Part shown: positions 614-56,470 of the stretch, piece after piece | Layout: every line of letters starts with the position of its first letter | How positions within the stretch are numbered: the first letter of the stretch is position 1 | Assembly: GCA_043228905.1 (NCBI GenBank) | Contig: JBHGNT010000006.1 | Span: forward strand, 9,424,001 to 9,488,000 | Length of the DNA stretch: 64,000 bases | Source of the DNA: Azolla caroliniana | Lineage: Eukaryota > Plantae > Polypodiophyta | Direction of reading: 5' to 3' | Program-made: the position numbers and the translations under genes | The notes under the pieces: generated by a model | Told to the model about the DNA's origin: nothing | The model's input: only the letters and a program-made list of their open reading frames with translations | The model's database searches: none

Positions 614-3600
614 TTGAGCTATCTTCACGACCAACGCATGATTTCGGTTAACTCCGTCAACATGTACGCTATCATCGATGAATACCATCATGGCATCTTG
701 ATGGAGGAAGCTGAAGTTAACACAAAATATAAAATGGTGGATAAGAAGATCAAGCCAGTTGCGGTTCCGCTACCGGAAGATAGCTGGCAAAAGATGAAGG
801 AAGTCGCTAACGATCCAAGCTTAAGAGACCCAAAGACAATAGGTCATGTCTTCACCGAAGAGACGAAAAGAAAGTTACGAGTTGGAAAGGAGGATTTCCT
901 CCTCCCTGAAGAGGAGCGAAAGTTTTATGAAATGCTTGAAAGGCATGGGAAAGCCTTCATGTTCTCTCCCCAAGAAATCGGATGTGATGACCCAAAGATT
1001 ATAGAGCCGATTGTGATCTTCACGGTGCCGCATGTGCCTTGGAATTTGAAACCGATACTAGTTCCAAGAGTGCACCTTCCGAAGCTGATTGAGCTTTTAA
1101 AGGAGAAAGTGAATATGGGTATTCTAGAACCGTCGAATGCTCCTCACTCTAATAGGTGGTTCACGGTGCCGAAGAAGAATGGATCATTGCGATTCATCCA
1201 AGATCTTCAACCCGTCAACAAGGTGACAATTCGAAATGCTGGAATTGGTCCGAGCGTGGACAAATTTGCCAAGGCGTTTGCGGGCCGGTCCATCTACTCC
1301 ATTGGTGATCTCTACTCCGGATATGACCAATTCCAATTGGCGATCGACAATCGTGACATTACAACCATGAGGACTTTGATCGGGCTCGTGCGGATGTGTA
1401 CCTTACCTCAAGGTGCAACGAACTCAGTGGCTCATATGGTGAATGCCATGAACAAGGTCTTGAAGGATTGCATCTCGGACATCACGATGCCATTCTTGGA
1501 TGATATTCCGATAAAAGGATGTTCAGATGAGGAGAAAGATGAATCGAAAGATAAGGAAGGGTGTAGAAAGTTCATCATGGATCATATGAAAGATTGTGAG
1601 AAGGTGCTCCAAAGGCTTGAAGATGTGAATTTGACGTTTTTGAGAGAAAAATCCACATTCGGGCAACCATAGATCTTGGTGGTAGGTCACTTGTGTGGAG
1701 CATACGGCCGGAAGCCTTCACCATCCAAGGTGAACACGATCTAGGATATGAAAGAAGAATGTGTAAACCAAACAGAGGTTCGAAGGTTCCTTGGAGCATG
1801 CGCGTTTTATCATATCTGGATTCCGCACTATGCCCATGTCGCCGAGCCTTTATATGGATTGCTAAAGAAAAGAATGAAGTTCGAATGGCAAGACGAACAC
1901 ACAAACGCGATGCGAAAGTTGAAGAAACTACTTCTTGAAGCTCCAACATTAAGAAACGCCGACTATACCGAAGGGAAGCCGATTTATGTGACTGTCGATA
2001 TGAGTCCAACCGGAATCGGGTGGGTCATCAACCAAGAAGGAGAAGATAATGCGCAATATGTCATTCGGTTCGGAGCAAAGGTTCTCAGCGAACGACAACA
2101 AAGATACGCCGAAGTCAAGCGAGAACTTTAGGGTATTGTGTCGGCAGTGAAGACGGACAAAGATTACCTGATCGGATCGAAAGTAATAATTGAGACCAAT
2201 TGTCTCCCAATCCTTGGGATTATCTTAGGATGTGCGACACCAGATCTAGCTATGCTAAGGTGGATCGCCTATATCAAGTCTTTAAACCCAGAGATCCGCC
2301 ATATTGTAGGGAAGAAGAACGCCATGGCTGACATGCTGTCGAGGGCAAGATTTGAGAATGAAGGTGACATGGTTTTAGAAAATGAAGACGTCACCCTCGA
2401 CTTCTTCAAGATGGAGCCCTCCACTATAGGCGGAAGACAAGGGCACGCTAACCCTCCACGCCTTCAACGAGGACGAGTACGAAGGGGAGTGGTTACTAAT
2501 CGGCAGATTCCTAAGAATGATGACGACGGATGCTTCGTTGACGAAGGAGGAGGCCCTACGAATCCGGAAGAAACCAAAATGAAGGACACCCAAAAAGAAG
2601 GACAGGAATACCACGTCGAGTGGTGGTGAAGAAAGAAGAGCAAGTGACGCTAATGACCGAATTCCACAAGAGTCCCTGGGCAGGTCATAGAGGAACACGG
2701 GCGACGTTTGAGAAGTTGAAGGAGAAGTATTGGTGGCCAAGCATGTACAAAGATGTACTCCATTTCGTGTCCACATGCGAAACATGCCAAGTACATTCGA
2801 ATATCCGTCATCGTGATGAGCTATGACCGACATACCCGCTCACCATACACTTCAAATGGATGGTGGATCTGGTCTCAATGCCAATGGGAGTGGGACAAAT
2901 GAAGTACTTAGCTCTGGCAAGAGAAGACTTGACAAATCAAGTGGAAGGACGAGCCTTGACAAATAAAATGATGTTGGTTGTTTGCATATTTCTACTCAAA
3001 GAGGTTGTCTGTCGATACAGATGTGTAGGAAAGATAGTTGCCGACCGAGGGGAGTTGGATGCACACGAAGCAACGGAGCTCTTCGAACGACTAGGCGTGA
3101 AGCTCTCCCTCACGACTGCCTACAATCCAAAAGCACATGGAAAGATTGAGCGAGGGCATGGAACTATCGTCAAAACCATCGTGCGAGCATGCAACGGTCG
3201 AGTCGAGAATTGGCCACGACTATTGCCCTATGCCTTGTGGGCCGACAGAACGACACACAACTCGGTGACGGGGTATATGCCAACAGAGCTTATGTATGGA
3301 CAAAAGCCGGTAATGCCCATCGAAAGGACGATCGCCTCCTAAGTAGCGATACCATGGGAGAACGAGATGAGCTGAGAAGAGTTTTTAGTGGCACGGATAA
3401 GGCAACTTGAAAGGAGACCTGAAGATCTAGAAAAAGCGCGAAAGATGATGGAGGCAGCCCGAGTGAAGAACAAAATTCAGTTCGACAAGACGCATCGACT
3501 GCGTCCCAAGAAATCGAAGAAGGAGATTGGGTATTGGTCTACGACAACAGCCTTGACAATCAACACAGTACAACAAGGAATTTCGCAAGTAGATGGTTCG

Positions 3601-3800: not shown

Positions 3801-4909
3801 TCACCGTCGCCGAAATCTTGCACTCTCTCTTCTTGGCACGTACCGGAGGACATGCGGTTTGGTGGGGGTGGATGTCGTGAAGATTTTCGGCGATAGTGTG
3901 AAACTTGTAAGGAACATACGAAATCGAGCGTGGTTCTTCACACGAAATATAAACAATAATAGTAAATATACTATTTTAAATAAGTTTAATACCTCGGTAC
4001 AAAATGATGGAGGTCTTGAAGAGCTTCTGAATGTACTTTACTACATAGGAAACATACATCTAAGTGTCGAGTTATGTGGGTATAAAGTTTGCAAAGAAGA
4101 AGAGAAAAATATGTGATATCCCACATAGACAGGACAAATAAGGAACCCACCATATATAAGGCAGAGAAAAAGCTATTATCTTTGTGTTTATGTGTGGAGT
4201 ATAGAAAGGTTAAGTTGTATGACTTAACGAATGAATGTAGCCAAATGCACATAACTACGTATTTTGGACGAATCCGGTGGCGGCGATCGACGGTGACTGG
4301 TGACGACGACCGACGACGATCCTTGCATATTCAAAAGGAGTGCAAGTGAAGACTTGATCCTTGCACCTCCACATTGAGAGTCTATAGACTTACCACTAGG
4401 CTATGTCATTTCTTTAGAAATGTTTTCCCTATCATTATAGTTTTACATGTAAATTCTCATATTAGAGCTTAATTGAGTGAGATGTGATGCATGAGTGCCA
4501 AATGGCAAACATGCATCACATGCATTCCATGCATCACATGCATTCCATGCATTGTATGCATGTCTTGTACCCTCACATGCATCATATGCATGGGTGCGTT
4601 TTTAAGATTGCTTAAAGTGTGCGGAACTTCATCGAGGGTTGTTTGGGGTGGACTCAAGTTTAGATCTTATTTGTATGTCTAAACATAAGTAGTGATATAG
4701 TTTTAGAAGAATAGAAAAGTGAGGGCGTGGGTGGGGGTTAGGGGAGTGTAGCTTGTTGAAATTATCAAAAGTATTTAAACCTAATCAAAGTTTTTAGAAT
4801 ATATTAAAGATCATTGGGATAACTTAAGTTATTAGACAACAATAACGTACTATTAAAACACCAATATAGAGTATTATTAAAACGGGACCACACGCTTAGA
4901 TGAACGGGA

Positions 4910-5440
4910 GTTGTTTAAACACACGCTTAAGCAAACACTTAAAAGAAAGATTATTATAAAAAATAAAAATAAAAATAAAAATAGAAAAGAGAGATTGAGA
5001 TTAAAAAATGATTATGGTTAAGAAGGGATTATGATTAAGGGGGAAGGGGTTGCTAAACAAAGTACTTAAACGAATGTTTAAACAAATATTTAGATAAGAA
5101 AACACTTGGGCAAACACTTAACGCAAGGTTAGGATTAAAAGAGAAGGGAGGGATTATGGTTAAAGAAAAGGGGTCATGGTTGAGAAGAGAATGATTATGA
5201 TTAAGAGAGGAGAATACTTAAACAAAAAGTTAAACCTAAAAATGATTGAACAAGTACTTAAAAAAAAGGGGTTAAACAAGTACGTAATAAAAATGTTTAT
5301 TAAACAAGTACTTAATAGAAAATGATTAAATAAATGCTTAAAAACTTAAGACAAAATTTTTTTTGATAAAAAAGTGATTAAACAAGTACTTAATAAAAAT
5401 TTATTAAATAAGTACTTAAGAACTTAAGACAAAAAATTAG
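4910..5440. repeat. AT-rich degenerate minisatellite in the PLE 3' region
   Basis: TTAAACAAGTACTTAA-like units at ~5052, 5246, 5272, 5300, 5326, 5378 and 5404 (~26-28 nt spacing in the cluster), plus GATTATG(G/A)TTAAG units at 5010-5205. Confidence 0.75.
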
Positions 5441-5490
5441 ATAAGAGCAACACATAGAAGGAAAGAAAGTTTTACTATCATAAGGCAACG

Positions 5491-5536
5491 ATCGGCAAAT
5501 GCATTTCGCCTCGATGGAGGCTCTTCATTGCCCGAT
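5491..5536 (-). ncRNA. Minimal type I hammerhead-ribozyme-like motif (variant core)
   Basis: Minus strand reads ATCGGGCA-ATGAAGA-GCCTC-CATC-GAGGC-GAAA-TGCA-TT-TGCCGAT: stem I (one bulge), core with A in place of C3, 5-bp stem II, GAAA, palindromic UGCA stem III, AUU triplet. Sense to the PLE. Confidence 0.7.
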
Positions 5537-5698
5537 GTACAAATGATGAAAACTAAGCCTACTAGGTTGCTCTTTTTATAGGGAGAGGGAGGAGAGTCCT
5601 TTGTATGTGGGACATACAAAAGTGTGTACAAAGGGAAGGTACAAGAGTGTACACAAGACTTTAGGTGGGGGTTAAGAGGGGTGAGAGTGCATAAAACA

Positions 5699-7469
5699 TT
5701 AGGTGGGGGGAAAGGATGCGTGTACTAGGTGGTTTCTTAGTTTTTTACCATTTAGCCAACACGTGAGAGGGGGTGTAAGGGAAGTGTATTGTGGTTGTCC
5801 TAGAAGGGGTTTAAGTTTGTTTCTCACGAGCGCTCCGGTTTGGAGTTTTTTGATACATGGGGAGTATCGAAGCTTAAAAACAATGGGTGGAGGTTTTTTG
5901 TTGTTGGGTTGGTTAGAGAGTAGTTGGTTTCGTATGGAGTAGGGGACGGTCGAAAAACACTTGAGTAGGAACTTCGATGGGTAGCCCCTAGCTCTTAGGC
6001 GGTTGTAGAACTTTTTGCGTAGTTCCATGTAGCCATTTTCCGAGCTCTCCCGGATAGCATACCGTTTTAGTTCGCCCGTGATGAAGCCCTTTTTGTGTGC
6101 TATGGGGTGCGAGGATTTCCACGGGAGGTACATGTAGGCATTGAGAGGTTTTTGGTGGCATGTGGTGTCGAGGATGCCGAATTCTTTAAAGTATGGGCCT
6201 TTGAAGAAGTCGACGTCCAGGATGGTGATCTCTTTAGGGGAGGTTGTTGATTCAATACGGATGTGTTGTTGTAGAGGCACGCCGTATTGGTGTAAGAAGG
6301 TGTGAAGTGTATCGGGGGAACCTTCCCAAACTCCTATGGCATCATCGATGTAGCGTTTGTAGTAGAGTAGTTGCGGTGTTTGGAAAGCTAGGTTGTCGTC
6401 CTCTAGCTGCGAAAGAAACAAGCAAGCGTAAACAACCGCAAAATTACTACCCATCGCAGTGCCTTTAATTTGTAACCAAAAAGCATTATTAAAGGAGAGA
6501 AAATTGTTTCTAAGTATTAGTTCGGCAACACTCATAATGATTTTGGTTTTGTGGTGGGAAATGATGTGAAATAGATTTTTTAAAAACCAATAGACCTTCC
6601 GTGGTAGGTATACTGGGATATAGTGACACTACGTCAAAAGAAAACAACGTGCAAGTTTTGGGGAAGGTGTGGTGTGCTAGGTCCTTAACAAGTGTTAAGG
6701 AGTCTTTGAGGTGTTGTTTTTTAGACAATAAGACAAGATGTAATAGATGGTGTAGCCATTTAGAGGCTCTTTCGAAAACATAATTGTTGTAGGCGCAAAT
6801 AGGGCGTCCTACAACAATGGGCTTGTGGATTTTGGGGATGATGTAGAAACGACATATCCTGAAACCATGTTTGGGTTTCTGAAGGAGGAATCTAATTTCC
6901 TCATTGGAGAGGTGGGGGGAAGCTTTCAGACATAGGTGTTCAAGTCGACTGTGGAGAGTTTCTAGGGGGACGTCTTTGACGGGGGTGTAAGTGTTTTTGT
7001 CGTTGAGCTGTCTAAGGCATTCGTTAAGGTACCAATCCTTAGAGAGAATGCACGTGCCTAGATTTTTATCCGCGGGTTTAATAACTATGTCTTGATTTTT
7101 TTTGAGATTATGTAGTGCAGTTCTAAAGTTCCTATGAGGGCGAGGTTGGATGGTGGGTGGGGAGGGGAGGGCAGAGGTGATAGATGTGATGGTTTGTGTG
7201 ATTTCTGGGACGGCTGGGGGATTCCAACTGGGGTTCGGTATTCTAAATGGAGAGATAATGTTAGTAGAGTTTCTAAAGAAATATTTGAGGCGGTAAGTTC
7301 TATTGAAGGATACAACGGCATCTATCAATTGTTGTTTTCTAATAGGTTGGGGTGGGGGAATAAAGTCTAGACCTAAGCTTAGAAGTTTGAGTTGGGGTGG
7401 AGGAAGGTGGAAAGAGGAAAGGTTGTGCAATGAGTGATTAGTGATCCTATTCTCGAGCTGGGAGGGTGT
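5699..7469 (-). pseudogene. PLE reverse transcriptase (~590 aa when repaired; single +1 frameshift near 6545)
   Basis: N-terminal HNLSS..LLSLGLDFIP, IVIKPADKNLG, FYIIPKIHK, FDVVSLYPSIP, QIKGTAMGSNFA, YKRYIDD, ILDV and thumb YLPWKSSHP..ELKRY..LRARGYP. ORFs 6510-7430 and 5699-6535 join by removing one A from CACAAAACC. The frame is open up to the 7471 junction. Confidence 0.9.
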
Positions 7470-7471
7470 GC

Positions 7472-7697
7472 AATGTGTAAACCAAACAGAGGTTCGAAGG
7501 TTCCTTGGAGCATGCGCGTTTTATCATATCTGGATTCCGCACTATGCCCATGTCGCCGAGCCTTTATATGGATTGCTAAAGAAAAGAATGAAGTTCGAAT
7601 GGCAAGACGAACACACAAACGCGATGCGAAAGTTGAAGAAACTACTTCTTGAAGCTCCAACATTAAGAAACGCCGACTATACCGAAGGGAAGCCGAT
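7472..7697 (+). repeat. Exact 226-bp copy of gypsy pol 1758-1983 (templated filler)
   Basis: Base-by-base identical to 1758-1983 (AATGTGTAAACC...GGGAAGCCGAT). The same peptides appear twice in the ORF track. Confidence 0.95.
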
Positions 7698-13617: not shown

Positions 13618-15125
13618 TGTCGTGTGGTTTTTCACACACGATATGAAAACTAATAAAATAATTATTTATGATTAGCTTAATATATTGATATGCAAAGATA
13701 GATGTGTTCAAGAGCTTCATAATATATTTTACTACGCATGAATTGGATAAATAAGTATCAAGTTATGTGAGTGAGAAGTTTGAAGAGAAAAAGGAAAAAA
13801 TACAAAACTGTGAGATATCCCACATAAATAGGTTAACATTAAAATGCAGGATATATAAGGGAAACCAAAACATATTCATTCTATCAATGTGTGGAGCATA
13901 GAATGTTCAAGGTGACTTGGGTTACATTGTGTGGTGTGCACGCTTCGGGTGTACACGCGTATGCACGGTCGTGTTGATGCTTCGAGTGTACGTGCGTACT
14001 GTATGCACGTCCACGTGGATGTTTTCGGACGTACGCTTCGGGTGTACACGCGTATGCACGGTCGTGTTGATGCTTCGGGTGTACGTGCGTAGTGTATGCA
14101 CGTCCACGTGGACGTTTTCGGACGTACACGTGTGTGCAAGTTTTGGGCGTACGCGTGGACGTTTCAGACGAACGAGCGTGCGGTCAGGACGCGCGTGAGT
14201 GCGGATGCGTACATGGCGACGCTTCGGGTGTACATGCGTATGCACGTCCGTGTGTGTGCAAGTTTTGGGCGTACGCGTGCACGGACGCGTGGACGTTTTC
14301 GGACGTACGCGTGTGTGCAAGTTTCAGGTGCACGCATGCACAGACGAGCAAGGGGATGCGTACACGGTGCGGTCGGGACGCACGTGTGTGTGGATGCGTA
14401 CACGGTGCGGGTTGGACGCGCGCGTGCGTGGATGTGTACATTGCGCGGTCGGGACTTTTGCGCGCGAACGCACATATCTACGGTTTGGTTGTGACGCACG
14501 TACGAATTGCGCACGGGCTAAACTTTATGGATGATTGTGTCATTTGGCCGAATTATACGGACAGTCGCATGCAAACAAAAGCCAAGGCCATGCAACTAAA
14601 AGTAAAAGGCATGCATCTAAAAATGGAAGCATGCAACTAAAAGTAGAGGCTATGCAACTAAATGTGGGCATGCAAAGTAACACTGGGGAGGAGGATCAAC
14701 AAAGAGCTCGATATATGTCCCATTTTTTCCCTCTAGTTTTTTTTTTTTTTCCTTTCTTGCTTCTTCTTCCCTCTCGGATTCGAGAAACAAATTATCTCAC
14801 ATATTGATATCAAATGCCTAGCTTTGTTTACTGGAGTTTTCTTGTCAAAAATTATCTCTCGTATTCATATCGGACCACTCCTTGCATGGTTGTTGGCTCC
14901 TTTCTTTGAAAAATTAATCTCTCATTTCCATACCGAACCCATTGTAACACGATTCTGAAATTATAAAGAATCGATTTTCTTTTGCAATAAACTAATGATT
15001 TGTCTCTTCCACTTGTCTTATGCTTAAAACATGCTTGTGTTGTACGTGTTGCACTAAATCCTTCTAGTCCAGAACCCCGGTGGTTCCGTCTCACGATCCA
15101 CACATAGTGATGGATTTTCACGACA
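13618..15125 (+). mobile_element. Solo gypsy LTR with 4-bp TSD (ACGT) inserted in the copia protease region
   Basis: TGTCGTG...CACGACA ends with ACGT on both sides. Removing it restores SNHMTCHKEWF. Similar to LTR 3873-7881 at both ends. Confidence 0.92.
13935..14520. repeat. CpG-rich tandem repeat (93-bp unit, then degenerate subunits) inside the solo LTR
   Basis: CGCTTCGGGTGTACACGCGTATGCACG recurs at 13941 and 14034. The region is built from palindromic words (TGCA, CGTACG, CACGTG, ACGCGT). Confidence 0.85.
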
Positions 15126-18100
15126 ACGTGCCACAAGGAGTGGTTCTCGTACCTAGAAAAACCGATGCAACCGGGAGTAGTCGCAACCGGAGATGACACT
15201 CCGCATCCGATTGCGAGTGTCGGTGAAGTTCCCCTGAGCCATGTCGGGCAGAAAGGAAAACTCATGAACGTGTTACACGTCCCAACAATCACGGAAAAAC
15301 CTGGTGTCAGTCGGACAGATCGTCGACAAGGGCATGCAAGTCCGGTTCACACATCTCGGGTGCTTCATCGAGGAAGAAGGCCGAGTTATTGCGCAAGGGC
15401 GCAAAGACGGGAGGATGTGTATCCTCGACTCTAGTGATGGTGGCACCGCAATGTTCACGAAAGGACAAAAAGTTGAGTTGGATATTGACTTATGGCACAA
15501 GCGGATAGGCCACGTCAGCTATCAACGACTTCAGGACCTGCAATCGAATCATGTGGTGTTCGGATTGCCCAAATTTAGTAGCCGGAAGGCACAAATTTGT
15601 GAAGCCTGCCAGCTAGGGAAGCAACACCGACTTCCTTTCCCCAACCAGCATAACTGGAACCGAAACAAGCTCGACTTGATATATTCTGATGTGTGGGGGG
15701 CCGACACAGAACGTTAGTCTTGGGGGGAGTCGATATTTCTTCTCCTTCATCGACGACTATATGCGGCACACGTGGATCTACCTCATTGAGAAGAAGAGTG
15801 AAGTCTTCGACTATTTCCGGGACCTAAAGAGTTTCGTCGAAAGGGAAACAGGAAGACAGATCAAGTGCCTACAGTCGGATGGTGGAAAAGAGTACTTTTC
15901 CGGTCAATTCAACGGGTATCTACACCAGATGGGAATTTGACGCGAATTCAGTTGCAGATATACGCCGGAGCAAAACAACGTGGCCGAAAGAAAAAATCGG
16001 TCGATTGTGGAAGCGGCGCCGGTAATGCTGGAGGAGAAGAGTTTGCCCAAGTTCTATTGAGCCCAAGCGGTTCGGACCGCGGTCTACATCCAGAACCAGA
16101 TCGGAGAAAAAGTGTCGGCGCATGAGCTATACTTTGGAACGAAGCTGAATTTGTGACACTTAAGAGTTTTCGGTAGCATTGCGTATGTGCATGTGCCCAA
16201 GGAGAAACAGAGGAAGTTGGACGCGAAAGCCGAGAAGTGTATCTTGGTCGGCTATTCGGACGAGCAAAAGGGTTATAAGTGTTATAACCCACGCACCAAA
16301 CAAACGCGTGTGAGTCGCGACGTTGTGTTTAATGAGTCCACATCCTGGTACTTGCCTCCGACTCCAGACCTCATCTCTAATCCGAGTTCTGACGATGAGG
16401 TCAGCGAGGCCGAGATGCCTCCAGATGAGCCTGAAATCGGAACCCGCGAAGAGAGTCCGATTTCGTTTCGGTTAAGCGGACCGAATGGATGACTGAGTCG
16501 GTTCGACCAGTCCGATGAAGAGCCGGCGAGTAGGGCAGACTCGGCCATGCATTCCCCGCGCAGAAAGCCGAGAAGACAGCTTATGCGCAAGGAAAAAGGG
16601 AAGAAGAAGGTGTCGGATTATGACACGGATAGGAATGAGTTAGATCGATGCGAGTCCGACTCCAAGGGAAGTGATGATGGGTCTTTGAGAGCGAAATCCA
16701 CGTAGGCTAAGAAAGCCTCAACATCGGCTAATGAGCAATTACGCCGATCTACCCGCCAGAAGAACCCTATTGTGTGGTTTGGTTACAATGAGTACATGGT
16801 GCATCACTATGCGTACATGATGCATGTAGCAGAAGTGCGTGAGCTAGAGAGCTACACAGAAGCGGCAAAAGACGCGAATTGGTGTGCAACGATGGAGGAA
16901 TAGATGCGTGCATTGGGCGAAAATGAAACTTGGGACCTAGTTGACGCACCGAAAGGTGTGAAGCCGATTGGATGTAGGTGGGTGTACAAGGTCAAGTACA
17001 ACACTGACGGCTCGGTCAACCGATACAAGGCCCGGTTAGTAGCAAAAGGTTATGTATACGCAGCAACATGGCATTGACTACGTTGAGACGTTTGCACCAG
17101 TCGCGAAGATGACGACCGTCCGTGTTTTGCTCATGGTAGATGCGGCAAAGGGGTGGCACTTACATCAGATGGATGTAAAGAATGCGTTCCCGCAAGGTGA
17201 GCTTGAGGAACAAGTGTACATGGTACAGCCTCCAGGATTTCACTCCAGAACGAACACTTTGGCCATGTGCCGATTGAAGAAGTCCCTTTACAGATAAAAG
17301 CAAGCCCCGCATGCCTGCGTCGGATGGGCTTTGCGACGTCAAAATCGGACTCCTCACTGTTCATCCAGAAAGGTCGACTCGGGCCGGTTAGTATTTTACT
17401 TTATGTTGATGACTTGTTCATCACCGGCGCTGATCTAAGTGAGATTGATCACGTGAAGCTCCAGCTTGCGGCATCATTCGACATGAAGGATCTAGGGGAC
17501 CTTCATTACTTCCTCGGGATCGAAGTGATCTGCACCCTCGAAGGCATACTGATCAGCCAACGACATTACGTGCTGAGTATGCTCTTCAAATTCGGGATGG
17601 GCGACTTTAAGTCCGTCTCGACTCCTCTGGATAGAACCATCAAGATTCGCCCCGATTCCGGAAAGGTATGCAACCCAATGAGGTTCTGACAGATAGTCGG
17701 AAGCCTTATATACTTGACCATCACCCGATCAAATCTCAACTACCTAGTAGAGGTGATTAGTCAGTTCATGGCGCGACCTACTGAGGAGCATCTTCATTGT
17801 GCACAACGCATACTGCGGTACGTAAGCGGCACTAAGGACCAGGGGCTACTATATTGGTCCGGTACAGCCCCACAATTGGTCGGCCACACCGATGTCGACT
17901 GGACCGGCAACGTCGCCGATCGCCGATCCACGTCCGGTTTCCCGTTCTCTCTTGGGAGTGCCGCGATCGCGTGGAGTAGCAAGAAGCAGTCGACAATTGT
18001 GTTGTCAAGCACCGAAGCCGAGTATAGAGGAGCGGTTGTCGCGACATGCGAAGCCATATGGTTGAAGCGGCTACTTAAGGATCTGCAGGTGGAGGTATCT

Positions 18101-28778: not shown

Positions 28779-29377
28779 TCATGGGCGACCTTCTTCTTCT
28801 TCTTCTTCTTCTTGTCTTCCTGGCCTTTCGTCTTGTCTGCCATAGCCACCATTACCTCCTCCATCTGGACCTCCATCTTCTAGTTGGTTGTTCTGTCCGC
28901 CTCCATGTCTTCCCTGGGTCCTATGACAAGAAAAGAAGAACCAGAAAATTATGTGAGCCTTTTGGAATCATGGATGGATGGATGGATGGATGGATGAGAC
29001 AAGAAGCCATATGACCACATATCTGACCACATATCTGCAGGAGATCAAACTATTTAAAATCAACAGACTCGACAAATGAAAGAAGAGACGAGAGGTGCAT
29101 ACCCAGACGAAGAATTGGGGCCTGAGGTAGACTCCTTCATTCCGTGATATTCAGAGAATGGGGGAACCCCCGCAAAACCTCTGCTCCTCACGACTACAGG
29201 GCTGGATTTGGCGTCCACATCTCCAAACACTGCTCTCAGTGCTTCTTTTGCCTGCTCTTCCTGTCTCCTTTTCTCTTTCTCTCTACTTTCTTCTTCACCT
29301 CCCCCTCTTATCTTCTCTTCTCCTTTTATCTCTACGTCTTCTTCTTTCCGATGATGCGCATAAGTTTCGTCAGCCAT
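28779..29377 (-). CDS. Two-exon gene for a small hydrophilic Glu/Gly-rich protein (138 aa), function unknown; copy 1
   Basis: GCCATGGC start; exon 1 29377-29103; GTATGC...TTTTCTTGTCATAG intron 29102-28921; exon 2 28920-28779 stays in frame (GTQGRHGGGQNN..EEEEEEEGRP*). Same structure in the paralog. Splicing is inferred. Confidence 0.65.
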
Positions 29378-31095
29378 GGCCTTTTAAGTTAAGCTTAAAT
29401 TCTTTTTGATGATCGCTGCAAAGAGAAACCCTACACAATCAAATCAAATGAAAAATCAAATTCAAATTGAACAGGATCCAAGAAAGCAGAAACCCAAGGA
29501 AAGAAGAAGAAGAAGGATTTATGAAGCCTCTCGATGATCCAGTGAGAGAGAGAGAGAGAGAGGTAGTCTTGCCTCTGTCAGTCTGTAGGTCTCTGAATGA
29601 ATGGATGGATGGATGATGAAGGTGAGTGAGGTCCAATTTAAGGAGGAAAGAAGAAGAAGGTGGGATGATCACGATTCATGATGATGATAAATCTGTGGGC
29701 GACTTACTTTTCTGTTTCAACCATCTTTCCCAACTCTCTCTGACTTTGTCTTAGAGTCCTGTCTTTGTCATGGAGTCTTCTCTTCGTTTTTTTGCTTGAC
29801 CCTTGACTTTTGAAACACACTTGTTTTCATTGACCCCACCAACACATCATACATTCACACACGCACACGCATACGCACACGCACACGCACGCACTCACAC
29901 ACACAACACACATGCACACGCACACGCACGGATGCATACGTTTGTCGAGTCTTGAGTCTTGCCCCCTTGGGTGACGATGTTCCTAAGGAATGAACAAATC
30001 TCCCTATGCCCCTATTCCTAAGTGCTTCATTTCAGGGTTGTTATCGAGTGAACAAATGACCTAAATCGACGCCCTGTGTGTATGCACCTCCAATAACTTG
30101 GCTTGTTGCCACTCCCATTAGTAATGGGTGAACAGATATTGCATAACCTTAGATATTGCATAACCTTCCTACATTCATCATTGCTATACTACATACATAC
30201 ATACATACATACATCTCCATGTGTACAAGTGTGTGTGTGTGTGTGTGTGCATGTGCATGCGTGGTTTTGGATGAATGTATAGAGACATCGAAGCTACAGT
30301 GTATAGAGAAACATCTTCTCAAACAGTTTGGCAATACAAAGAACCTAAGTTATTACAGTAGTGAATATCTCTAATTGCAAAATAAAACCTCTCAAGTGTT
30401 GTAAGACTAGATGACACAAAGGCGTTTCGTTCGAGGATTGCAACCAAGATATAACTACCAAATCACTTTTCCATTCAACCTATGCATTTGTTCGATTTGC
30501 AATTACCATCAAACGGAAACCCCTTTGTCATACTCTAATTATACTATAGACCCCGGATACCGAAGGTAGTCAAACCATTCCTTATACAATTGCTAAAGGA
30601 AAAACGCTTACCCATATTAAAAAGGGTGACCAAAATTCATGACTCCGTACCTTATATTGTGTCATAACCACCCCAATGGCTTTATCAACTGGGTAGTTAA
30701 GGAATCTTTGTCACGTTATCCTTAATCATTGTAGTGAAAAAATAAAGACCAACTCTCTCTAGACGTTAGCTTAATAGTTTATGTTATAGCATTAAAGTCA
30801 TAAAGTTGAGAGAAGCGAACTTTCATCTTGACCATATGCTATGGCCCATAACTTAGATCGCAATTATTCTCTCATGGACTTTAAAAAGATTTCCCTCTCT
30901 CTTGATAAATAGAAGATGATAATGATATTTGAAGTCCCCTCTATAAAGTAAGAACCAAAGAGATTACATATTTAAATAATATATCCGAAAGGATAGCTTT
31001 TGAATTTCTAAAGTATAGTATATTTAGTTTTTGAGTTTCTAATATAGAAGGTAGACATACATATAGGCCCCCCTCTATATATTATGATCAGGAGC
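28830..31095 (+). repeat. Segmental direct repeat, copy 1 (gene plus ~1.7 kb upstream)
   Basis: Collinear with ~57660-59685; nearly identical over exon 1 and intron, clearly more diverged upstream. Confidence 0.9.
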
Positions 31096-39041: not shown

Positions 39042-42000
39042 TGTTGAGAGACAAGCTGAACATCGGCCAGATCGGCTAAAGAAGCCGAGGACCGGATCGG
39101 CTGGGACCAATCGGTTAGGCCGAGTGCGTAAACCGGGAGGTCGTTAGGAAAGATATTCCGTGAGGAAAATATTTGGGAGTTAGTGTAGGAGCTCTTAATG
39201 AGCATTGAAGTACTGTCAGTACTTCGGTCAGTCCTTCCAGGACTTGTATAAAAGTGTTCACTGAGCACGTCTTATGTACAGACTGAGCACTATTATTGAA
39301 TATAGTATTTTTTGTGTTTCTCTCTGTCTCTCCCGCGTATACCGTGTAAGCCTAAGCTCTCCATTGAACCTGAGTTTCCTTCCTCTGTTCTGTCTTCATA
39401 CTTGCTTCCGCACGCTACTTTCTACATGGTATCAGAGCGCGAGGGTCGAGAACCTCTCTGCAGCCGACACAGCTTGACGAAGAAGAACAAGAAGAACGAT
39501 GGATAGAGGCATGGCGAGCTCGCTTCCAACAGAGAAGCTCGACAGAACCAACTACGCGTCTTGGTCCTACAAGATGCACCAGTACCTGCTCGGGCATGGC
39601 TACTGGAGTTATGTCGAAGGAGCTAATGACGCGGCACCCGAATCGACACACAGAGACTTCCCGTTGTGGGAGCAATCGGCGAGCAGGGTACTATACTGCT
39701 TCGCGTCGTGTGTGGGTGAACAACTATTGAGCTATGTTCGGGATGCAAAGACGCCGAAGGGTGTGTGGGAAAATCTGAAGAAGATTTTCGCCGCGAGCAC
39801 CACAGCCAGGAAGCTTCAGCTCCGACAGGAGTTGAGCAACCTACGACAACGCCACTTGTCGGTGGCGGACTATACCTCGAAGATCAAGGATATCTGCGAC
39901 TCCCTCGCCTCCATAGAGGTGAACATCGAGGAGAGCAAAATGGTCCAGATCTGTCTCGGAGGTTTGGCGTCGAAGTTCGGAGCGTTCCGAACGGCTGTGT
40001 GTACCCGGGAGAATACGCCGTCCTTTTTCGACTTACAGTCGATGCTCCTGGTAGAGGAGAACCACGCGGGTGCGTCTACAAGCACGCACACCGACAACAG
40101 AATGTTGTACACGGAGGGAAAAAGGCCCCGTGGTCGTGGTGGACAAGGCGAGTCGGCACGCAATGGAGGCGGCCGACGAGATCAAGAAAGAAGGCACCGA
40201 AGTGATGCCGACAACAACTCTGGACCCTCTGGAAACAGGGGGAGTTAAAGCAATGAGAACCGGCAAGGGAAGTCCATTGCGGAGTGCTGGTACTGTGGCA
40301 AGAAAGGCCACAGGGAAAGTGAGTGCTGGAAGAAGTGCGCCGATTCGGAGAGAACTGGTTCCGGGAACGGCTCCAGACATACCGACAAGGGAAATCGGCA
40401 ACGATCGCACTACGCTGAAGACTCCGGGAGAACCGGAGAAGGGTCTGTCTTCGTGACGAGACATGAAGCAAACTCAATGAAACAGAGCACCCCGAGATCG
40501 GACGAGGTGTGGTACGTAGAGTCCGGCGCGTCAAACCACATGACGAGCCATAAGGAGTGGTTCTCGTACCTTGAAAAACCGATACAACCGGGAATAGTCG
40601 CAACAGGAGACGACACTCCGCATCTGATCGCGAATGTCGGAGAAGTTCCCCTTAGCCATGTCGGGCAGAAAGGGAAACTCAAGAACGTGCTGCACGTTCC
40701 GACAATCACGAAGAACTTGGTCTCGGTCGGACAGATCGTCGACCAAGGGATGGAGGTTCGGTTTACACACCTCAGGTGCTTCATTGAGGAAGAAGGCCAT
40801 GTGATTGCGCAAGGGCGCAGAGACGGAAGGATGTTCATCCTCGACTCCACTGACGGCGGCACCGCAATGTTCGCGAAGGGACAAAAGACCGAGTCAGACA
40901 TCGACTTGTGGCACAAGCGGATAGGCCACGTCAACCACCAACGGCTTCAAGATCTGCAAATGAAACAGGTAGTGTTCGGTTTGCCCAAATTTAGTGGCCG
41001 AAAGGCATAAATTTGTGAAGCCTGCCAGCTCGGGAAGCAACACCGACTTCCCTTCCCCAACGAGCGAAACCGGAGCCAGAACAAGCTCGACCTTATACAC
41101 TCCGATGTATGGGGGCCGACACAAAACGTTAGTCTTGGCGGGAGCCGATATTTCGTCTCCTTCATCGACGACCACACGCGGCACACGTGGATCTACCTCA
41201 TTGAGAGGAAGAGCGAAGTCTTCGACTGTTTCCGGGACCTCAAAGGGTTCGTGGAAGCCGAAATGGGACGAAAGATCAAGTGCCTACGGTCGGATGGCGG
41301 AAAATAGTACTTTTCTGGTCAATTCAACGGTTATCTACAACAAATGGGAATTCGCCGCGAATTCAGTTGTAGATACACACCAGAGCAGAACGGCGTGGCC
41401 GAGAGGAAGAATCGGTCGATTGTGGAAGCGGCACGGGCAATGCTGGAGGAGAAGAGCTTGCCCAAGTTCTACTGGGCCGAGGCGGTAAGGACCGCGGTAT
41501 ACATCCAGAACCGGATTGGAGACAAAGTGTCGGCGCACGAGCTATATTTCGGAACGAAGGCGAACTTGCGACACTTGAGGGTGTTCGGTAGCATTGCGTA
41601 TGTGCATGTACCGAAGGAGAAAAGGAGGAAGCTAGACGCAAAGGCTGAGAAATGCATCTTGGTCGGTTACTCGGACGAGTAGAAGGGTTATAAGTCCTAT
41701 AACCCTCGCACCAAACAAGCGCGTGTCAGCCGCGACGTTGTGTTTGACGAGTCCGCGTCCTGGTACCTGCCCTCGCCTCGGAACCCCTACTCCAATACAA
41801 GCTCTGACGATGAGGTAAGCGAGGCCGAGATGCCTCCGGATGAGCCCGAAATCGAGACCCGCGAAGAGAGTTCGATTTCACTCCGGTTAAGTGGACCGAT
41901 TGGACGACTGTGTCAGTACGACCAGTCCGATGAAGAGCCGGCGAGTAGTGGAGACTCGGCTGTGCATTCCCCGCGCAGGAAGCCGAGGAGACGGCTTACG

Positions 42001-44740
42001 CGCAAAGAGAAAGGGAAGAAGAAGGTGTCGGATTCCGGCATGGAAAGGAACGAGTCTGTCCGATGCGAGTCTGACTCCAAGGAAACTGGTGACGGGTCTT
42101 TAAATGTGAAGACCGCATCGACCAAGAAGGCCTCGACATCGGCTAATGTGAGATTACGCCGATCTACCCGCCAGAAGAACCCAGTTGTGCGGTTCGGATA
42201 CAACGAGTACATGGCGCATCATTATGCATACATGACCCGTGTAGCGGAAGTGTGTGAGCCGGAGAGCTACGCAGAAGCGGCTAAAGACGCGAATTGGCGC
42301 GCCGCGATGGAGGAAGAGATGCATGCATTGGCGGAGAACGAGACTTGGGACCTGGTCAACGCACCGAAGGGTGTAAAACCGATCGGGTGTAGATGGGTGT
42401 ACAAAGTCAAGTACAACACTGATGGCTCGGTCAACCGGTACAAGGCTCGACTAGTGGCAAAGGGCTACGCACAGAAACACGGCATCGACTACGATGAGAC
42501 GTTTGTGCCGGTCGCGAAAATGACGACCGTCCGTGTTTTGCTCGCAGTAGCTGCGGCCAAGGGGTGGCACTTACATCAGATGGATGTAAAGAATGCGTTC
42601 CTGCAAGGTGACCTTGAGGAACAGGTGTACATGGTACAGCCCCCCGGATTTCACTCTGGAACGAACTCCTCGGCAGTATGCCGACTGAAGAAGTCCCTTT
42701 ACGGACTGAAGCAAGCCCCGCGTGCCTGGAACGCGAAAATCACGCAGCACCTGCGTCGGATGGGCTTCGTCACGTCAAAATCGAACTCTTCCCTGTTCAT
42801 CTGGAAAGGTCGACTCGGACCGGTTAGTATTTTACTGTATGTTGATGACTTGGTCATCACCGGCGCCGACCTCAGTGAAATCAACCGCGTGAAGCGCCAG
42901 CTTGTGGCATCGTTCGACATGAAGGATCTGGGAGACCTTCATTACTTCCTCGGGATCGAAGTGATCCGTACCCCCGAAGGCATATTGATCAGCCAACGTC
43001 ATTACATGCTGAGTATGCTCTTCAAGCTCGGGATGGCCGACTGTAAGTCCGTCTCGACTCCTCTGGATAGAACCATCAAGCTTCGTCCCGATACGGGAAA
43101 GGTATGCGACCCGACGAGATTCCGACAAATTGTCGGAAGCCTCATATACTTGACCATCACCCGACCCGACCTCAGTTATCCGGTCGGGGTGATCAGTCAG
43201 TTCATGGCGCGACCTACCGAGGAGCACCTTCAGTGTGTGCAACGCGTACTGCGGTATGTAAGTGGCACTAAGGACCGAGGACTGCTATATCGGACCGGTG
43301 CAGCCGCGCAGTTAGTCGGCTACACCGATGCTGATTGGGCTGGCAATGCCGCCGATCGCCGATCCACGTCTGGATACGCGTTCCCCCTCGGGAGTGCCGC
43401 GATCGCATGGAGCAGTAAGAAGCAGCCGACAGTTGCACTGTCGAGCACCGAAGCTGAGTACCGAGGAGCAGCTATCGCGACATGCGAAGCCATATGGTTG
43501 AAGCGGCTACTTAAGGACCTGCAAGAGGAGGTGTCAGATCCGACGACGATCTACTGCGACAACCTCAGCAGCATCCAACTCGCGAAAAACCCCGTTTTCC
43601 ACGCGCGGACCAAGCACATTGAGGTGCACTACCATTTCTTCCGTGAGCGTGTCCTTTCCGGTGAAGTCGAACTTCAGTATGTTCCGACGGATCGGCAGAC
43701 TGCCGACATCTTCACCAAGCCTCTTGGTCTGGACAAGTTGCGGCAATTCTCAGGTGCGCTCGGGTTGCGTCACCTTGACGTGCCGAACTTGAGGGGGAGA
43801 ATAGTCCCGAACAACCAAGCAAGGCAGCAGGAAAGGAGCAGTGACCATGACACTGAGTCGGTTGACTCGTTCGTTGACTCGGTTGAAGACGGATCGGCTG
43901 AAGAAGCCGAGGGCGACTTCGGATCGGCTGAAGAAGCCGAGGACGGACCTGCGGAGAAGTTCGGAAGCGGACAGAAGGGGAGCAGTCGAAGGAGAGAGCC
44001 GAAGCCAACCACGGATAGGGGAGATGACGCCATCGAGGGCGAGAAAACCGAAGACGAGTTGGAGACAGCCAACTCGGATGAGAGCGAAAACCGATCGGAG
44101 ATAGCTGAGTCGGTTCGGATGTTTGATTCGGACATGCTGAATCAACTGAGGCCCAAGCGGAAGAAAAGGCAGCAGAAGAAGCATCAACACCACAACAACA
44201 GAAGAGCTGATGAGGGCCACATGAGCAGACAAGCCGACCGGAAGGGTCGAAGCGCGCAGAGTCGAACAGGTCGAGGAGCGTGAGTGAGGCAAGAAGCCAG
44301 GAGGAACCGGTGCTGTGAAGATCCCGAAGAGCCTCAAGTTGAGCTTGAGGGGGAGTGTTGAGAGACAAGCTCAACATCGGCCAGATCGGCTGAAGAAGCC
44401 GAGGACCGGATCGGCTGGGACCGATCGGTTAGGCCGAGTGCGTAAACCGGGAGGTCGTTAGGAAAGATATTCTGTGAGGAATATATTTGGGAGTTAGTGT
44501 AGGAGCTCTTAATGAGCATTGAAGTACTGTCAGTACTTCGGTCAGTCCTTCCAGGACTTGTATAAAAGTGTTCACTAAGCACGTCTTATGTACAGACTGA
44601 GCACTATTATTGAATATAGTATTTTTTGTGTTTCTCTCTGTCTCTCCCGCGTATACCGTGTAAGCCTAAGCTCTCCATTGAACCTGAGTTTCCTTCCTCT
44701 GTTCTGTCTTAATACTTGCTTCCGCATGCTACTTTCTACA
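39042..44740 (+). mobile_element. Full-length Ty1/copia family A element, the youngest LTR element in the window
   Basis: 385-bp LTRs 39042-39426 and 44356-44740 (about 8 differences counted by eye); TSD AGTTT; PBS TGGTATCAGAGC 39427-39438; PPT 44341-44355. Confidence 0.96.
39499..44283 (+). pseudogene. gag-pol: Copia gag-pol polyprotein with a few in-frame stops and a C-terminal extension
   Basis: Same-frame segments 39499-40248, 40453-41010, 41344-41682 and 41740-44283 give gag, zinc knuckle, PR, INT, RT (LYVDDL) and RNase H (YTDADWAG, RTKHIEVHYHF). Confidence 0.93.
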
Positions 44741-47764: not shown

Positions 47765-49354
47765 TGTGGTCATACCGCGTGGCCAAAGGTAAAATGATTT
47801 TAAAGGGGAGGGTCCAATCACATAAAAAAATAAATGTATATACGAAAAGATATTATTAATAAGTAAAAGTGAATAACTTGGTGGTTATAAATTATCAGTG
47901 TTGCCTTTTGACGACCGTTTTGACTATTTTTGGCAAATTTAACCGTATATGAAGGTTAATTTGAAAATGAAACCGTCAATCTTGACGGGCATATATTTTA
48001 TAAAACCATAAAAATGAAGGTTTAAATTTTGTTAATACTGTCAAATTTTGCTAAGGCCAAAACAATAGTACATGTATTAGTAGTTACAAATTACAATTCA
48101 TAGGCTATAACATATAGTTTTATTCGAGAAGGGTAAATGTGTAAACATATGTTGTGTGATATGATAAAGGAGAAGAAGTGCCCACACATATGTGCAGTGT
48201 GAAAATAAACTTAGGGCTTCTTCTATTTTCAACCCATTCCTCTCTTTTGTTTGTTTGTTTGTTTCTCTCTCTCTCTCTCCACATGCTTCTACTTCTTTCT
48301 TGATTTCTCTCTCACTCTCTCCCTTGTTTTGATCAAGTTGTAATTCTTTCTTTCTTTCGCAAGTTATATAATTGATGATTGATGAAATACATCCACAACT
48401 TTGCAACTTTGCATCTCTCACACACAAGTTATAATTGATCATTGATGTCAATGCATGTCTTCAAATTTTACATGATGCAAAGGCTTGTGAAATGGAACTC
48501 TATAGGTTTGTTGACACTTTACGTTTAAATTGTGAAGGCTATACTATGCATGAAGCTTGGCATATGTTTTTGTAAAATGAAGGATTGGTAAGATAATTTC
48601 CCTCATTTAATGACATTATGGCACACTACTTTGGTTATTCAATCTAGCACGGTTTCATGTGCGAGAGGGTTCTCTAAGCAAAATCTCATCAAAGAGATGA
48701 AAAAAAATCCATTGAATATAGAACATTTAGATGATTTAATGTGAGTCTCATTGAATTGGCCACACATTGAAGAAATACAATGGGATTGTGTATATGAAAT
48801 TTGGAAATATGCATAGAAAAATATAATATATTGTTTAGTACGAATATTCGATGTATTTACTTTTTGAAGGGCAATTTTTTGGACAAAACGCTGTCGTGCC
48901 TTTCGACGCTGGATCGTTGCGTGAGTCGGGTGGGAACCATTGGGGTTTTGGACTAGGAGGAGGAAGAAGTTGAGATGAGTTTAGTTATAAATATGAATAA
49001 ATTATAAGAAAGAGGGATAGGAACTTGTGAATCCCACAAGCATAATGTATTTTATTAATCAATATTTAGATAAGAATATGAATTTAGATTAAATGAGAAG
49101 GATATAGAAACCTCGTGAATCCCACAAGTATAGTTTATTTATTTTATTAATATTTAAAACCCTAATAATAAATTAGAATAGATTGGAAGAGAAAGATATA
49201 GAAAACATGTGAATCCCACAAGCATAGTTTATTTTATTAATCATTATTTTTGAATCCTAATGATTTTTCATCCATAAATTTCTCCTCATTACATTGTGCT
49301 CCCCATCCTTATATAATGATGAGAGAGTCTTAGCAATCCATGTTTTTTCTGTAA

Positions 49355-49660
49355 CTATAAACTCTATGCTTTCTCTATCTATAGACTATATGCTTTCTCT
49401 AACATACTTTTTCTAACCTCATGCGTTTTTGTTTCAATTATAGTGTTCATGCACCCTAGATGTGCACGTGTAGCTTTTTTTTTATCATGCGTTTTTCTTT
49501 TAACTAAAGCTCCATGCTTTCTCTATCTATAGACTATATGCTTTCTCTAACATGCTTTTTCTAACCTCATGCGTTTTTGTTTCGATTATAGTGTTCATGC
49601 ACCCTAGATGTGCACGTGTAGCTTTTTTTTTATCATGCGTTTTTCTTTTAACTAAAGCTC
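49355..49660. repeat. ~150-bp tandem duplication
   Basis: ATGCTTTCTCTATCTATAGACTATATGC...TTTAACTAAAGCTC occurs twice, nearly identical. Confidence 0.85.
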
Positions 49661-50374: not shown

Positions 50375-50780
50375 CTCCGATCCCCCTCCTACACGATTGC
50401 CCTCCTGTCCCCCACCTCAGCCAAGTCCAGGTGGCCCTTAGTCCACAAGAGTGATTGATCTTTCTTTGCCAAATGATCTTTTCCTCGATCCCCCTTTGAC
50501 ACGATAGCCCACTTGTCCCCCACCTCAGCCAAGTCTAGGTGGCCCTCAGTCCACAGGAGCGATTGATCTTCGCCGCCATATGATCTTTCCTCGATCCCCC
50601 TTTGACACGATAGCCCTCTTGTCCCCCACCTCAGCCAAGTCCAAGTGGCCCTCAGTCCACAGATGCGATTGATCTTCGCCGCCATATGATCTTTCTTCGA
50701 TCCCCCTCCGACACGATAGCCCTCCTGTCCCCCACCTCAGCAAAGTCCAGGTGGCCCTCAGTCCACAGGAGTGACCGATC
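50375..50780. repeat. ~106-bp tandem array (~3.6 units) inside the TRIM-like element
   Basis: ACACGAT(A/T)GCCC..CCCCACCTCAGC..GTGGCCCT recurs at 50391, 50499, 50605 and 50711. Confidence 0.9.
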
Positions 50781-54878: not shown

Positions 54879-55933
54879 TGTCGTGTTAAACAAGGTACAC
54901 CAAGGGAAAGCGATGAAGAATTGTGATTTCACGTTGTCATGGGTGTCATGAAGGAATTGCTTCACGATATAAAAATTGTACTCAAGTATTATACTAAGTG
55001 ACATTTGAAAGACTTAAACCCACAACCTTATATACTAGGGGAAAATGACAAAGAATTGTGATTTCACGTTGTCATGGGTGTCGTGAAAGAATTGCTTCAC
55101 GATATTAAAAATGTACTCGGGTATTATAGTAACTGACATTTGAAAGACTTAAACCCACAACCTTATATACCAAGTAGAAAGTACATATCACTAGGCTAAG
55201 TTATTTTTTTAGTCTAACTATATTTTCACCGATAGTAAATACTAAATAATATACTTGAATGCATTGGGAAACATTCTTTTTCATACGAATGCAAACGAAT
55301 GTGTATGTTATCAAAACATTCTTACGTTGTTTTTTACACTTTATACCTTCACTATTTTACCTAAAATTTTTTTTACCTTATAATAAACAATGAATATAAA
55401 AGTATGGTATTTACCATACTTCGAGGGTGTTTACCATACTCGAATGATTGAAACATTCTCGTATGCGAATGCATGTATGGTACATACTATGTTTTCATCA
55501 TTGTACTTATCCCATGTAAATTTTCATACATGAGAGCTCGAAGAGGGAGATGGTTATCATGCATCACATGCATTTCATGCATTGTATGCATGTCTTGTAC
55601 CATCACATGTATCATATGCATTGGGGCAACTATATAAGAAAGGAAGAGAAAAAGCAAACGGGGAACTAGAAAACAGGAGCTAGCTCATTGAAAAAGTATC
55701 TTGTTTCTTAAAGTTGAAGTTAAGGGTTCAAAGCCATAATAATAATAATAATATTCTTCTTCAACATCTTCTTATCCTTCATCTTTTGAGCTATACCAAT
55801 TTTCAATCTTCTGAAGTGTAGCTTTGTTTTCCTCGCATCTTTGTCTTTTCGTTAGCTTGGCGAAAGTCCTTTCCGGTCCAGGACCCCGATGGTTCCGCTT
55901 CAGTTCACTAACACACGAGGATTTTCCTCGACA
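54879..55933 (+). mobile_element. Solo gypsy LTR related to 3873-7881, with a ~134-bp tandem duplication (54918-55170)
   Basis: TGTCGTG start and CCTCGACA end; shares the GCATCACATGCATT..CATATGCA block with 4512-4590; flanks TTAG/TCGG match poorly as a TSD. Confidence 0.65.
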
Positions 55934-56470
55934 TCGGCCACTCGAAGAGACAATGGAGTGACGTGAGAACTCTACCCTGACTCGTGTTGTCGAAGCCATT
56001 AGAGGTAACCATGGTCCACCGAACTCGTCTTCACGGGAAGCTTGAATCCTCTTCTCCTACCTTTCCTTCTTTCTCTACTACTTAGTTAATGGTTGGCATT
56101 TCCACTACCGTTGTATTCATCTACTCTCACTATTATACGCCCTAAGATATAAAGGTTTTCTCTTGATTAACCAAACGTTTTATAACCTTAAACAAGGATA
56201 TTAGGCTGTAATCTCCTTTGTGGGTTCTTTTTATTGTGATCAAAGAGAGATCAAGGTACAACGTAGCTTTCACCCTTCAACTCCTCACTCCCTTCGACTT
56301 TGGGCTCCCTTTTGACTCTCGAAATCTTTCGAGTGCAAGGATCAATTGACTCTAAAGAACCATGGACTCCCAGGAGCATTCGAGTCCACTAGTGTCTGCA
56401 CCTTCCAAGTCCTTGTGTCCTCTCTAGTCCCACTCTAGTAGCACTTGCAAGCGCGTTATCGTGACACCAA

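What the first reader, a model, noticed from the sequence alone, without database searches (positions are those of the whole stretch)
4595..7471. Penelope-like retroelement whose RT stops where a GIY-YIG endonuclease would start
Seen: a PLE-type RT with all core and thumb motifs, broken only by one extra A, while neighbouring LTR elements carry many stops. The ORF ends at ..LRNHLVHASFPPT* with no Cys/His linker or GIY-YIG. Known: canonical Penelope/Neptune PLEs have a C-terminal GIY-YIG, Athena/Coprina types lack it, and Naiad/Chlamys types place it N-terminally. PLEs are patchily distributed in land plants. Inference: this is either a 5'-truncated Chlamys-like element or an endonuclease-less plant PLE family, and it looks recently active.
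Basis: partly seen in the sequence, partly recalled or inferred. Interest (0 to 1): 0.85.

Follow-up and report, generated by a model that had tools for sequence, protein, structure and literature searches.

The report
Broken nuclease-free Penelope copy, internal insertion
This is a shortened, broken copy of a plant jumping gene whose intact relatives encode a telomerase-like copying enzyme but no DNA-cutting enzyme; the kind is known from spikemoss chromosome ends, but this copy sits inside another repeat, likely pasted into an existing DNA break together with a patch copied from nearby DNA.

Summary
The element is real (minus strand, 4599-7469) and is a Penelope-like (PLE) RT with no endonuclease. 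The Chlamys idea is refuted. Near-full-length family contigs (L001, 99% identical protein; L002) carry a long-helix ORF1 upstream, joined to the RT frame by a conserved -1 slippery site. They have no GIY-YIG, CxC or IFD. The stop is shared by 13 of 14 family proteins. The RT groups with Selaginella, Ginkgo, Cryptomeria and Closterium RTs, the Coprina-type line known from Selaginella since 2007.

Corrections: the frameshift is a 2-base loss, not an extra A. This copy is dead: 5'-truncated, frameshifted, hammerhead core mutated. Only the family is young (about 1% divergence, intact copies exist).

Together these point to capture at a DNA break. The few other junctions seen are also non-telomeric.

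Earlier AI notes of this scan reported similar elements elsewhere in this genome and in another. Verdict: new member of a known kind.

The parts
4599..7469 (-). 5'-truncated copy of a 5.2-kb endonuclease-less Penelope-like element (last 2.87 kb of the unit)
   Evidence: 98% identity to L001 over 7469-4670, 31 substitutions in 2793 aligned bases; 3' end at 4599 shared with contigs of runs X1, X5, X10
5699..7469 (-). RT frame (ORF2): N-terminal DKN region, RT core, thumb and a C-terminal extension of about 96 aa after RGYP; stop at 5699-5701; no endonuclease
6549..6553 (-). frameshift: two bases missing relative to other copies
5494..5532 (-). type I hammerhead ribozyme with a palindromic helix III; core C changed to A at 5528 in this copy
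   Evidence: 9 of 9 related loci keep the C; helices 98.9% paired with two-sided changes; relatives hit Rfam HH9 below its gathering score
4910..5434 (-). AT-rich degenerate repeats of the 3' untranslated region
   Evidence: present in L001
4652..4690 (-). predicted hairpin near the 3' end, also in L002 and L003
   Evidence: folding only
4614..4623 (-). conserved CGCAC(A/G/T)C(C/T)TT motif, 10 nt before the terminal A5 tract (15 nt before the 3' end); likely part of the signal for the start of copying
   Evidence: found once each in 8 of 13 plant-type sequences, 0.33 expected by chance
4599..4607 (-). 3' terminus (A5 tract); likely a 9-nt microhomology with the target
   Evidence: one X7 contig joins 4607 to 7696
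7470..7471 (.). two bases between element and filler, origin unclear
7472..7697 (+). 226-nt filler, an exact copy of Gypsy DNA at 1758-1983
   Evidence: longest exact distant repeat in the window
1758..1983 (+). likely template of the filler, inside a decayed Gypsy element 2.6 kb from the 3' junction
4420..4607 (+). left arm of the high-copy LTR-like repeat that was hit
   Evidence: matches 55489-55639; high depth
7696..7884 (+). right arm of the same LTR-like repeat
   Evidence: matches 55864-55938 and 14930-15128

Best explanation
This is a dead, 5'-truncated copy of a young family of endonuclease-less, Coprina-type Penelope-like elements that was likely copied into a pre-existing DNA break inside an LTR-like repeat. 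Shown: the family unit is about 5.2 kb, with a long-helix ORF1, an overlapping -1 RT frame, no GIY-YIG, a hammerhead and an AT-rich 3' region; one contig closes on itself, as head-to-tail units would. Inferred steps: (1) a read-through RNA from a tandem array is trimmed by the hammerhead; (2) the RT is likely made as an ORF1-RT fusion by -1 ribosomal frameshifting at A AAA AAC plus a stem; (3) the RT would bind near the conserved 3' motif and start at a fixed A5 tract, primed by a T-rich 3' end of broken DNA in place of a nick of its own; (4) copying stopped at 7469; (5) the free end likely copied 226 nt from Gypsy DNA 2.6 kb away and rejoined the far side through a 2-nt microhomology, leaving no target-site duplication.
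For: Family anatomy. No GIY-YIG pattern in 0 of 192 RT proteins screened, while the same pattern finds 4 of 79 loci, which form their own clade; no PF01541 among 120 listed near-length and 38 longer relatives. No IFD: motif A-B spacing 57-59, median 59. Land-plant clade with Selaginella at SH-aLRT 99; the Selaginella reference 'Selagine1' in Craig 2021 Fig. S1 shares GTAMGSNFAVVYAC and the short spacing. Frameshift: 39 of 41 two-ORF loci overlap in -1; AAAAAAC lies in the slippery phase in 26 of 39, and 0 of 39 in either other phase. Head-to-tail units: L002 is circular, with the unit joint at the same A tract. Break capture: no TSD of 4 nt or more, a possible empty-site join, the exact filler, and two further contigs with different non-telomeric flanks at the same 3' end.
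Against: No read or contig bridging the 7469-7472 or 7697 junctions was listed, so a local misassembly is not excluded. The empty-site join rests on one contig with 21 letters on its short side. The filler has 0 differences from its template while the copy has about 0.7% private changes; P(0) is about 0.04-0.05 if both aged together, so the changes may predate insertion or the filler came later. The tree holds no named Coprina, Athena, Neptune, Chlamys or TERT sequence; placement in Coprina rests on the Selaginella link read by eye. Frameshifting, cleavage and priming are untested.
Confidence: 0.72

Rival explanations
1. Same family, but an ordinary telomere-bound Coprina element: most copies sit in arrays at chromosome ends, and this one is a rare stray or a relic of a chromosome rearrangement.
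For: Sister family L010 ends in (CCCTAAA)n 34 nt after the start of the same motif. L001 has CCCTAAACCCTAA 240 nt into the unit. Head-to-tail units fit telomeric arrays. Depth ratios suggest only tens of copies (depth is not copy number). Contigs may drop telomere repeats.
Against: No telomere repeat in the window or at the family's recurrent 3' end. Of 20 loose ends shown (of 29), three 5' junctions and two 3' flanks at 4599 are non-telomeric; one junction has telomere-like repeats, but on the strand opposite to that expected of a telomere primer. This rival is compatible with the best explanation for this one copy.
Confidence: 0.4
2. The element was inserted at a nick made in trans by another element's endonuclease (a plant LINE or an EN+ PLE) at a T-rich site; the filler came from later repair.
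For: All three dispersed 3' junctions end at a T5/A5 tract, like LINE T-tract priming (recalled). The filler looks younger than the copy.
Against: No target-site duplication. No helper endonuclease was identified; EN+ loci found were distant and of unknown hosts.
Confidence: 0.12
3. The 5' junction and 226-nt duplicate are an assembly artefact, and some private changes, the frameshift included, are consensus errors.
For: The repeat is exact; private changes are transversion-rich (12 transitions, 19 transversions against L001); no listed contig carries the window alleles at most sites (contigs drop rare variants).
Against: The two arms of the hit repeat join up across element plus filler, which a chimera would not easily produce. 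Some window variants recur in family protein P0126. An error-rich assembly would hardly give 226 identical bases.
Confidence: 0.1
4. 5'-truncated Chlamys/Naiad-like element with a lost N-terminal GIY-YIG.
For: The copy is 5'-truncated, and Chlamys-clade elements occur in streptophyte algae and spike mosses (Craig 2021).
Against: Two near-full-length contigs show ORF1 instead of an endonuclease; no CxC, no IFD; DKN motif and canonical hammerhead present.
Confidence: 0.02

Closest known systems
Selaginella moellendorffii EN- PLEs of the Coprina group (Sm1/Sm2; 'Selagine1' in Craig et al. 2021, PMC8557442 Fig. S1)
   Same: Shared RT signature around motifs A and B, no IFD, no endonuclease, canonical type I hammerhead (PMC4209133 passages); S. 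moellendorffii XP_024523476 is 42% identical and in the same clade.
   Different: Those are described as telomere-associated. Here the recurrent 3' end is an A5 tract with no telomere complement, and the junctions seen are internal.
Coprina-1_Alen of Ascochyta lentis (PMC13159263)
   Same: Two ORFs, coil domain, DKN, RT, thumb, no endonuclease (passages).
   Different: Fungal; all 13 copies at chromosome ends framed by telomere repeats.
Athena / Terminon elements of bdelloid rotifers
   Same: EN-, coiled-coil ORFs, head-to-tail arrays, hammerhead; Craig's Fig. 1 legend notes that ORF1 can be set off by a frameshift with a pseudoknot.
   Different: Rotifer-specific RT clade; telomere complement directly after the hammerhead. 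Here 0.9 kb lies between hammerhead and 3' end.
Chlamys and PLE-X (Craig et al. 2021)
   Same: Plant-lineage PLEs; PLE-X also lacks the endonuclease, and its Chara families are genome-wide, a precedent for dispersal without an endonuclease.
   Different: They have CxC and IFD; PLE-X of spike mosses targets 28S rDNA. None of this is seen here.
Penelope/Poseidon, Neptune, Dryad (C-terminal EN+)
   Same: PLE RT, hammerhead, tandem structure; internal start of copying shown in vitro for an anole PLE (PMC11167929).
   Different: They carry a C-terminal GIY-YIG; this family stops about 96 aa after the thumb motif.

Membership tests
PLE (any) | Telomerase-related RT with PLE N-terminal DK motif, RT core and thumb | tested here: met
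   DKNLG, motifs A-E and RGY conserved; AlphaFold model pLDDT 95, best PDB matches are TERTs, E 3e-11, TM 0.46
PLE (any) | Hammerhead ribozyme in the terminal repeat region | tested here: met
   intact in the family, core mutated in this copy; cleavage not assayed
Coprina (EN- PLE) | No GIY-YIG endonuclease in the full-length unit | tested here: met
Coprina (EN- PLE) | RT groups with the Selaginella EN- elements | tested here: met
   SH-aLRT 99 clade with S. moellendorffii P0011; P0011 and the window RT match 'Selagine1' by eye
Coprina (EN- PLE) | RT groups with named fungal Coprina against Athena, Neptune, Chlamys, TERT | not testable with these tools
   named reference sequences were not obtainable as tool sequences
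Coprina (EN- PLE) | Attachment to telomeres through C-rich repeats near the hammerhead | tested here: inconclusive
   absent for this copy and the five other dispersed junctions counted; present in sister family L010; no host genome for a census
Chlamys/Naiad | N-terminal GIY-YIG | tested here: not met
Chlamys/Naiad/PLE-X | CxC motif upstream of the RT | tested here: not met
   no CxC in the first 330 aa of the L001 RT frame
Chlamys/Naiad/PLE-X | Insertion in fingers (IFD, about 20-40 aa in Chlamys) | tested here: not met
   motif A-B spacing 57-59; Craig section 9
Penelope/Poseidon, Neptune | C-terminal GIY-YIG after the thumb | tested here: not met
   same stop in 13 of 14 family proteins, the 14th ends early

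The most novel reading that the evidence does not exclude
A land-plant Coprina subfamily has swapped telomere targeting for break capture. It keeps the RNA signal that fixes where copying starts, but the telomere-pairing tract next to it has become an A5 tract, so it spreads through the chromosome interior with no nuclease, as a telomerase-like enzyme healing breaks. The line itself has been inherited vertically from Zygnematophyceae through lycophytes to gymnosperms.
Probability: 0.3. Interest if true: 0.68.

Novelty: new member of a known kind. Interest (0 to 1): 0.42.

Why it matters
EN- PLEs are the closest mobile relatives of telomerase, and how they get a primer away from telomeres is open (Craig 2021 says so for PLE-X). 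This family gives a testable case: intact 5.2-kb units, a fixed 3' start site beside a conserved motif, and sister families with and without a telomere tract at that site. It also suggests an old, continuous streptophyte line rather than patchy occurrences. As a single broken copy of a known class, it is of moderate interest.

Tried and rejected
No host genome was held, so no copy census or chromosome position. Pfam found nothing for the window RT or P0002, and a PDB sequence search nothing; the local Pfam copy is insensitive to this RT. Rfam missed the window's hammerhead. No RNA holder was listed: no evidence either way on expression. No listed contig bridged the 5' junction or carried most window alleles: contigs show presence, not absence. 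A programmed frameshift at 6549 was rejected, as other copies are in frame. A polyA-tail origin of the 3' end was rejected: only five A, and the same tract lies at the tandem joint. ORF1 has only 3 relatives by database search, no family by Pfam, only generic helical look-alikes in the ESM Atlas and no PDB match at E 0.001. One YVG-like hit lies antisense in the 3' region and was judged chance. Telomere-like TAACCC runs in L005, L008-L010 lie inside ORF1 as Asn-Pro codons and were not counted as telomere junctions. The host was not identified by me; 'fern' comes from unchecked AI notes. The tree used 171 of 258 RT cores (quick mode, no bootstrap). Gladyshev and Arkhipova 2007, Arkhipova 2017 and Lin 2016 could not be read; they may already report internal or conifer EN- copies.

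Full report
Observation. The minus strand holds two overlapping frames, 6510-7520 and 5699-6628. Read with X at the break they give a 589-aa PLE-type RT ending HASFPPT*. It has 1191 relatives at E 0.001 or better; the best is an intact 577-aa protein at 97% identity. An AlphaFold model of that protein (pLDDT 95) has telomerase TERT as its three best PDB matches, with LINE-1 ORF2p fourth. No host genome was held. The window is a field of Gypsy and Copia fragments (family names recalled from their motifs), without telomere repeats.

Corrections. The break is a loss of two bases: all six runs laid show two more letters near 6549, L001-L003 agree, and 14 of 14 family proteins read through (one unrelated 40-aa cluster member left out). 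The stop is not private: 13 of 14 end alike, and the 14th ends early. The element runs 4599-7469.

The full family. L001 (5171 nt, 99% protein identity) and L002 (5202 nt, 95%) give nearly the whole unit. ORF1 (655 aa from the first ATG) has a core of four long helices (model pLDDT 83) conserved in sister families. It overlaps the RT frame in -1. At the start of the overlap lies A AAA AAC and an 8-bp stem. Among 41 loci with two overlapping ORFs, 39 overlap in -1; 26 of these 39 have AAAAAAC in the slippery phase within about 60 nt of the RT frame's start, none in the other phases. Frameshifting is inferred, not assayed. No GIY-YIG pattern occurs in 192 RT proteins screened; 4 of 79 loci do have one and form a separate clade. 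None of 38 longer relatives lists PF01541. There is no CxC and no IFD, which excludes Chlamys, Naiad and PLE-X as defined by Craig et al. 2021. L002 closes on itself, and its unit joint lies at the same A tract where the window copy ends: head-to-tail arrays, or circles.

RNA signals. A type I hammerhead with a palindromic helix III lies at 5494-5532. Its helices are 98.9% paired over 10 sequences, with changes on both sides. Nine of 9 relatives keep the core C; the window copy has A, which established knowledge of the core says should cripple cleavage. A second motif, CGCAC(A/G/T)C(C/T)TT, occurs once each in 8 of 13 plant-type sequences against 0.33 expected. In the window it ends 15 nt before the 3' end. 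In sister family L010 telomere repeats begin 34 nt from its start. An earlier AI note (e1-10619883) mentioned such a signal; the counts here are my own.

Relationships. In a tree of 171 of 258 RT cores (SH-aLRT only) the family lies in a clade (99) with Selaginella, Ginkgo, Cryptomeria and many unnamed rows; Closterium joins just outside (91, unresolved fork). This fits vertical descent in streptophytes but was not tested further. The reference 'Selagine1' in Craig's Fig. S1 shares the motif B stretch and spacing. Named references of other clades could not be placed in the tree.

How this copy got here. Both flanks match parts of one LTR-like repeat, and one contig of run X7 joins 4607 to 7696. 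If that is the empty site, the target shared 9 nt with the element's 3' end, and nothing was duplicated; no TSD of 4 nt or more was found. At the 5' side come two bases and then 226 nt identical to 1758-1983, with a 2-nt overlap to the far flank. This is the pattern of priming at a broken end followed by templated filler repair (general knowledge of plant break repair, recalled). Two more contigs end at 4599 with different non-telomeric flanks, and three 5' junctions are non-telomeric (20 of 29 loose ends shown). One junction at 4676 has telomere-like repeats on the unexpected strand. Depth falls from the 3' region to the 5' side in the runs laid (for example 24 to 8 in X5, 489 to 160 in X10), as many 5'-truncated copies would give; depth is a weak measure.

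Age. The copy differs from L001 at 31 of 2793 aligned bases; about 21 changes look private. The filler has none, which is a mild tension (P about 0.04). The family is young and has intact members; this copy cannot make the protein.

What is known. EN- PLEs are known from Selaginella, fungi and diatoms and are generally telomeric; EN- PLE-X families in Chara are genome-wide; a two-ORF Coprina is described from Ascochyta. Seen: PMC8557442 abstract, sections 3, 9, 12, 17 and parts of the supplement; passages of PMC4209133, PMC12477314, PMC6431247, PMC13159263; PMC11167929 abstract and first part of the main text. Not seen: Gladyshev and Arkhipova 2007, Arkhipova 2017, Lin 2016. Eight searches (listings only) showed no paper on such an element from ferns or Closterium, or on a census of internal plant Coprina copies; the unread papers may cover conifers and internal copies.

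Verdict. A real, dead copy of a new family of a known kind: identity about 0.9, break-capture mechanism about 0.72, family-wide retargeting about 0.3. Interest 0.42.

Noticed in passing
L005 ~1427, L008 ~1836, L009 ~1917-1970, L010 ~844-1100: Telomere-like TAACCC/CCCTAA runs lie within or beside ORF1 and read as Asn-Pro repeats in several sister families.
   Followed up: no
L010 3' end, L017 3' end, L052 5' end: 3 of 79 loci have telomere repeat runs at a contig end; L010 is a plant-type sister family.
   Followed up: partly
L009 344-894; L004 3739-3806; L008 313-416: Sister-family contigs are flanked by sequence like the window's Copia elements, suggesting internal insertions too; could be assembly chimeras.
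   Followed up: partly
L002, L015, L020, L031, L047, L069, L072: 7 of 79 contigs close on themselves: tandem arrays or circular DNA.
   Followed up: no
L021 3132 and 7033; L065 2414: Single-ORF units whose hammerhead-like core overlaps the stop codon.
   Followed up: no
window 39169-44710: Copia element with near-identical terminal repeats (exact stretches of 94 and 133 nt) and an 866-aa frame: a fairly young insertion.
   Followed up: no
window 29048-29424 and 57865-58241: Exact repeats of 100 and 206 nt, 28.8 kb apart, unexplained.
   Followed up: no
window 13940-14127, 49344-49660, 50378-50771, 54916-55170: Tandem repeats with units of 93, 148, 106 and 135 nt.
   Followed up: no
window 4670-7469: Differences from L001 are transversion-rich (19 against 12 transitions), unlike those from L002 (50 against 104); RT errors or consensus errors are possible.
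   Followed up: partly
cluster of P0007: Cryptomeria japonica has at least 8 near-identical intact RT proteins, several at neighbouring loci on small scaffolds, as arrays would give.
   Followed up: no
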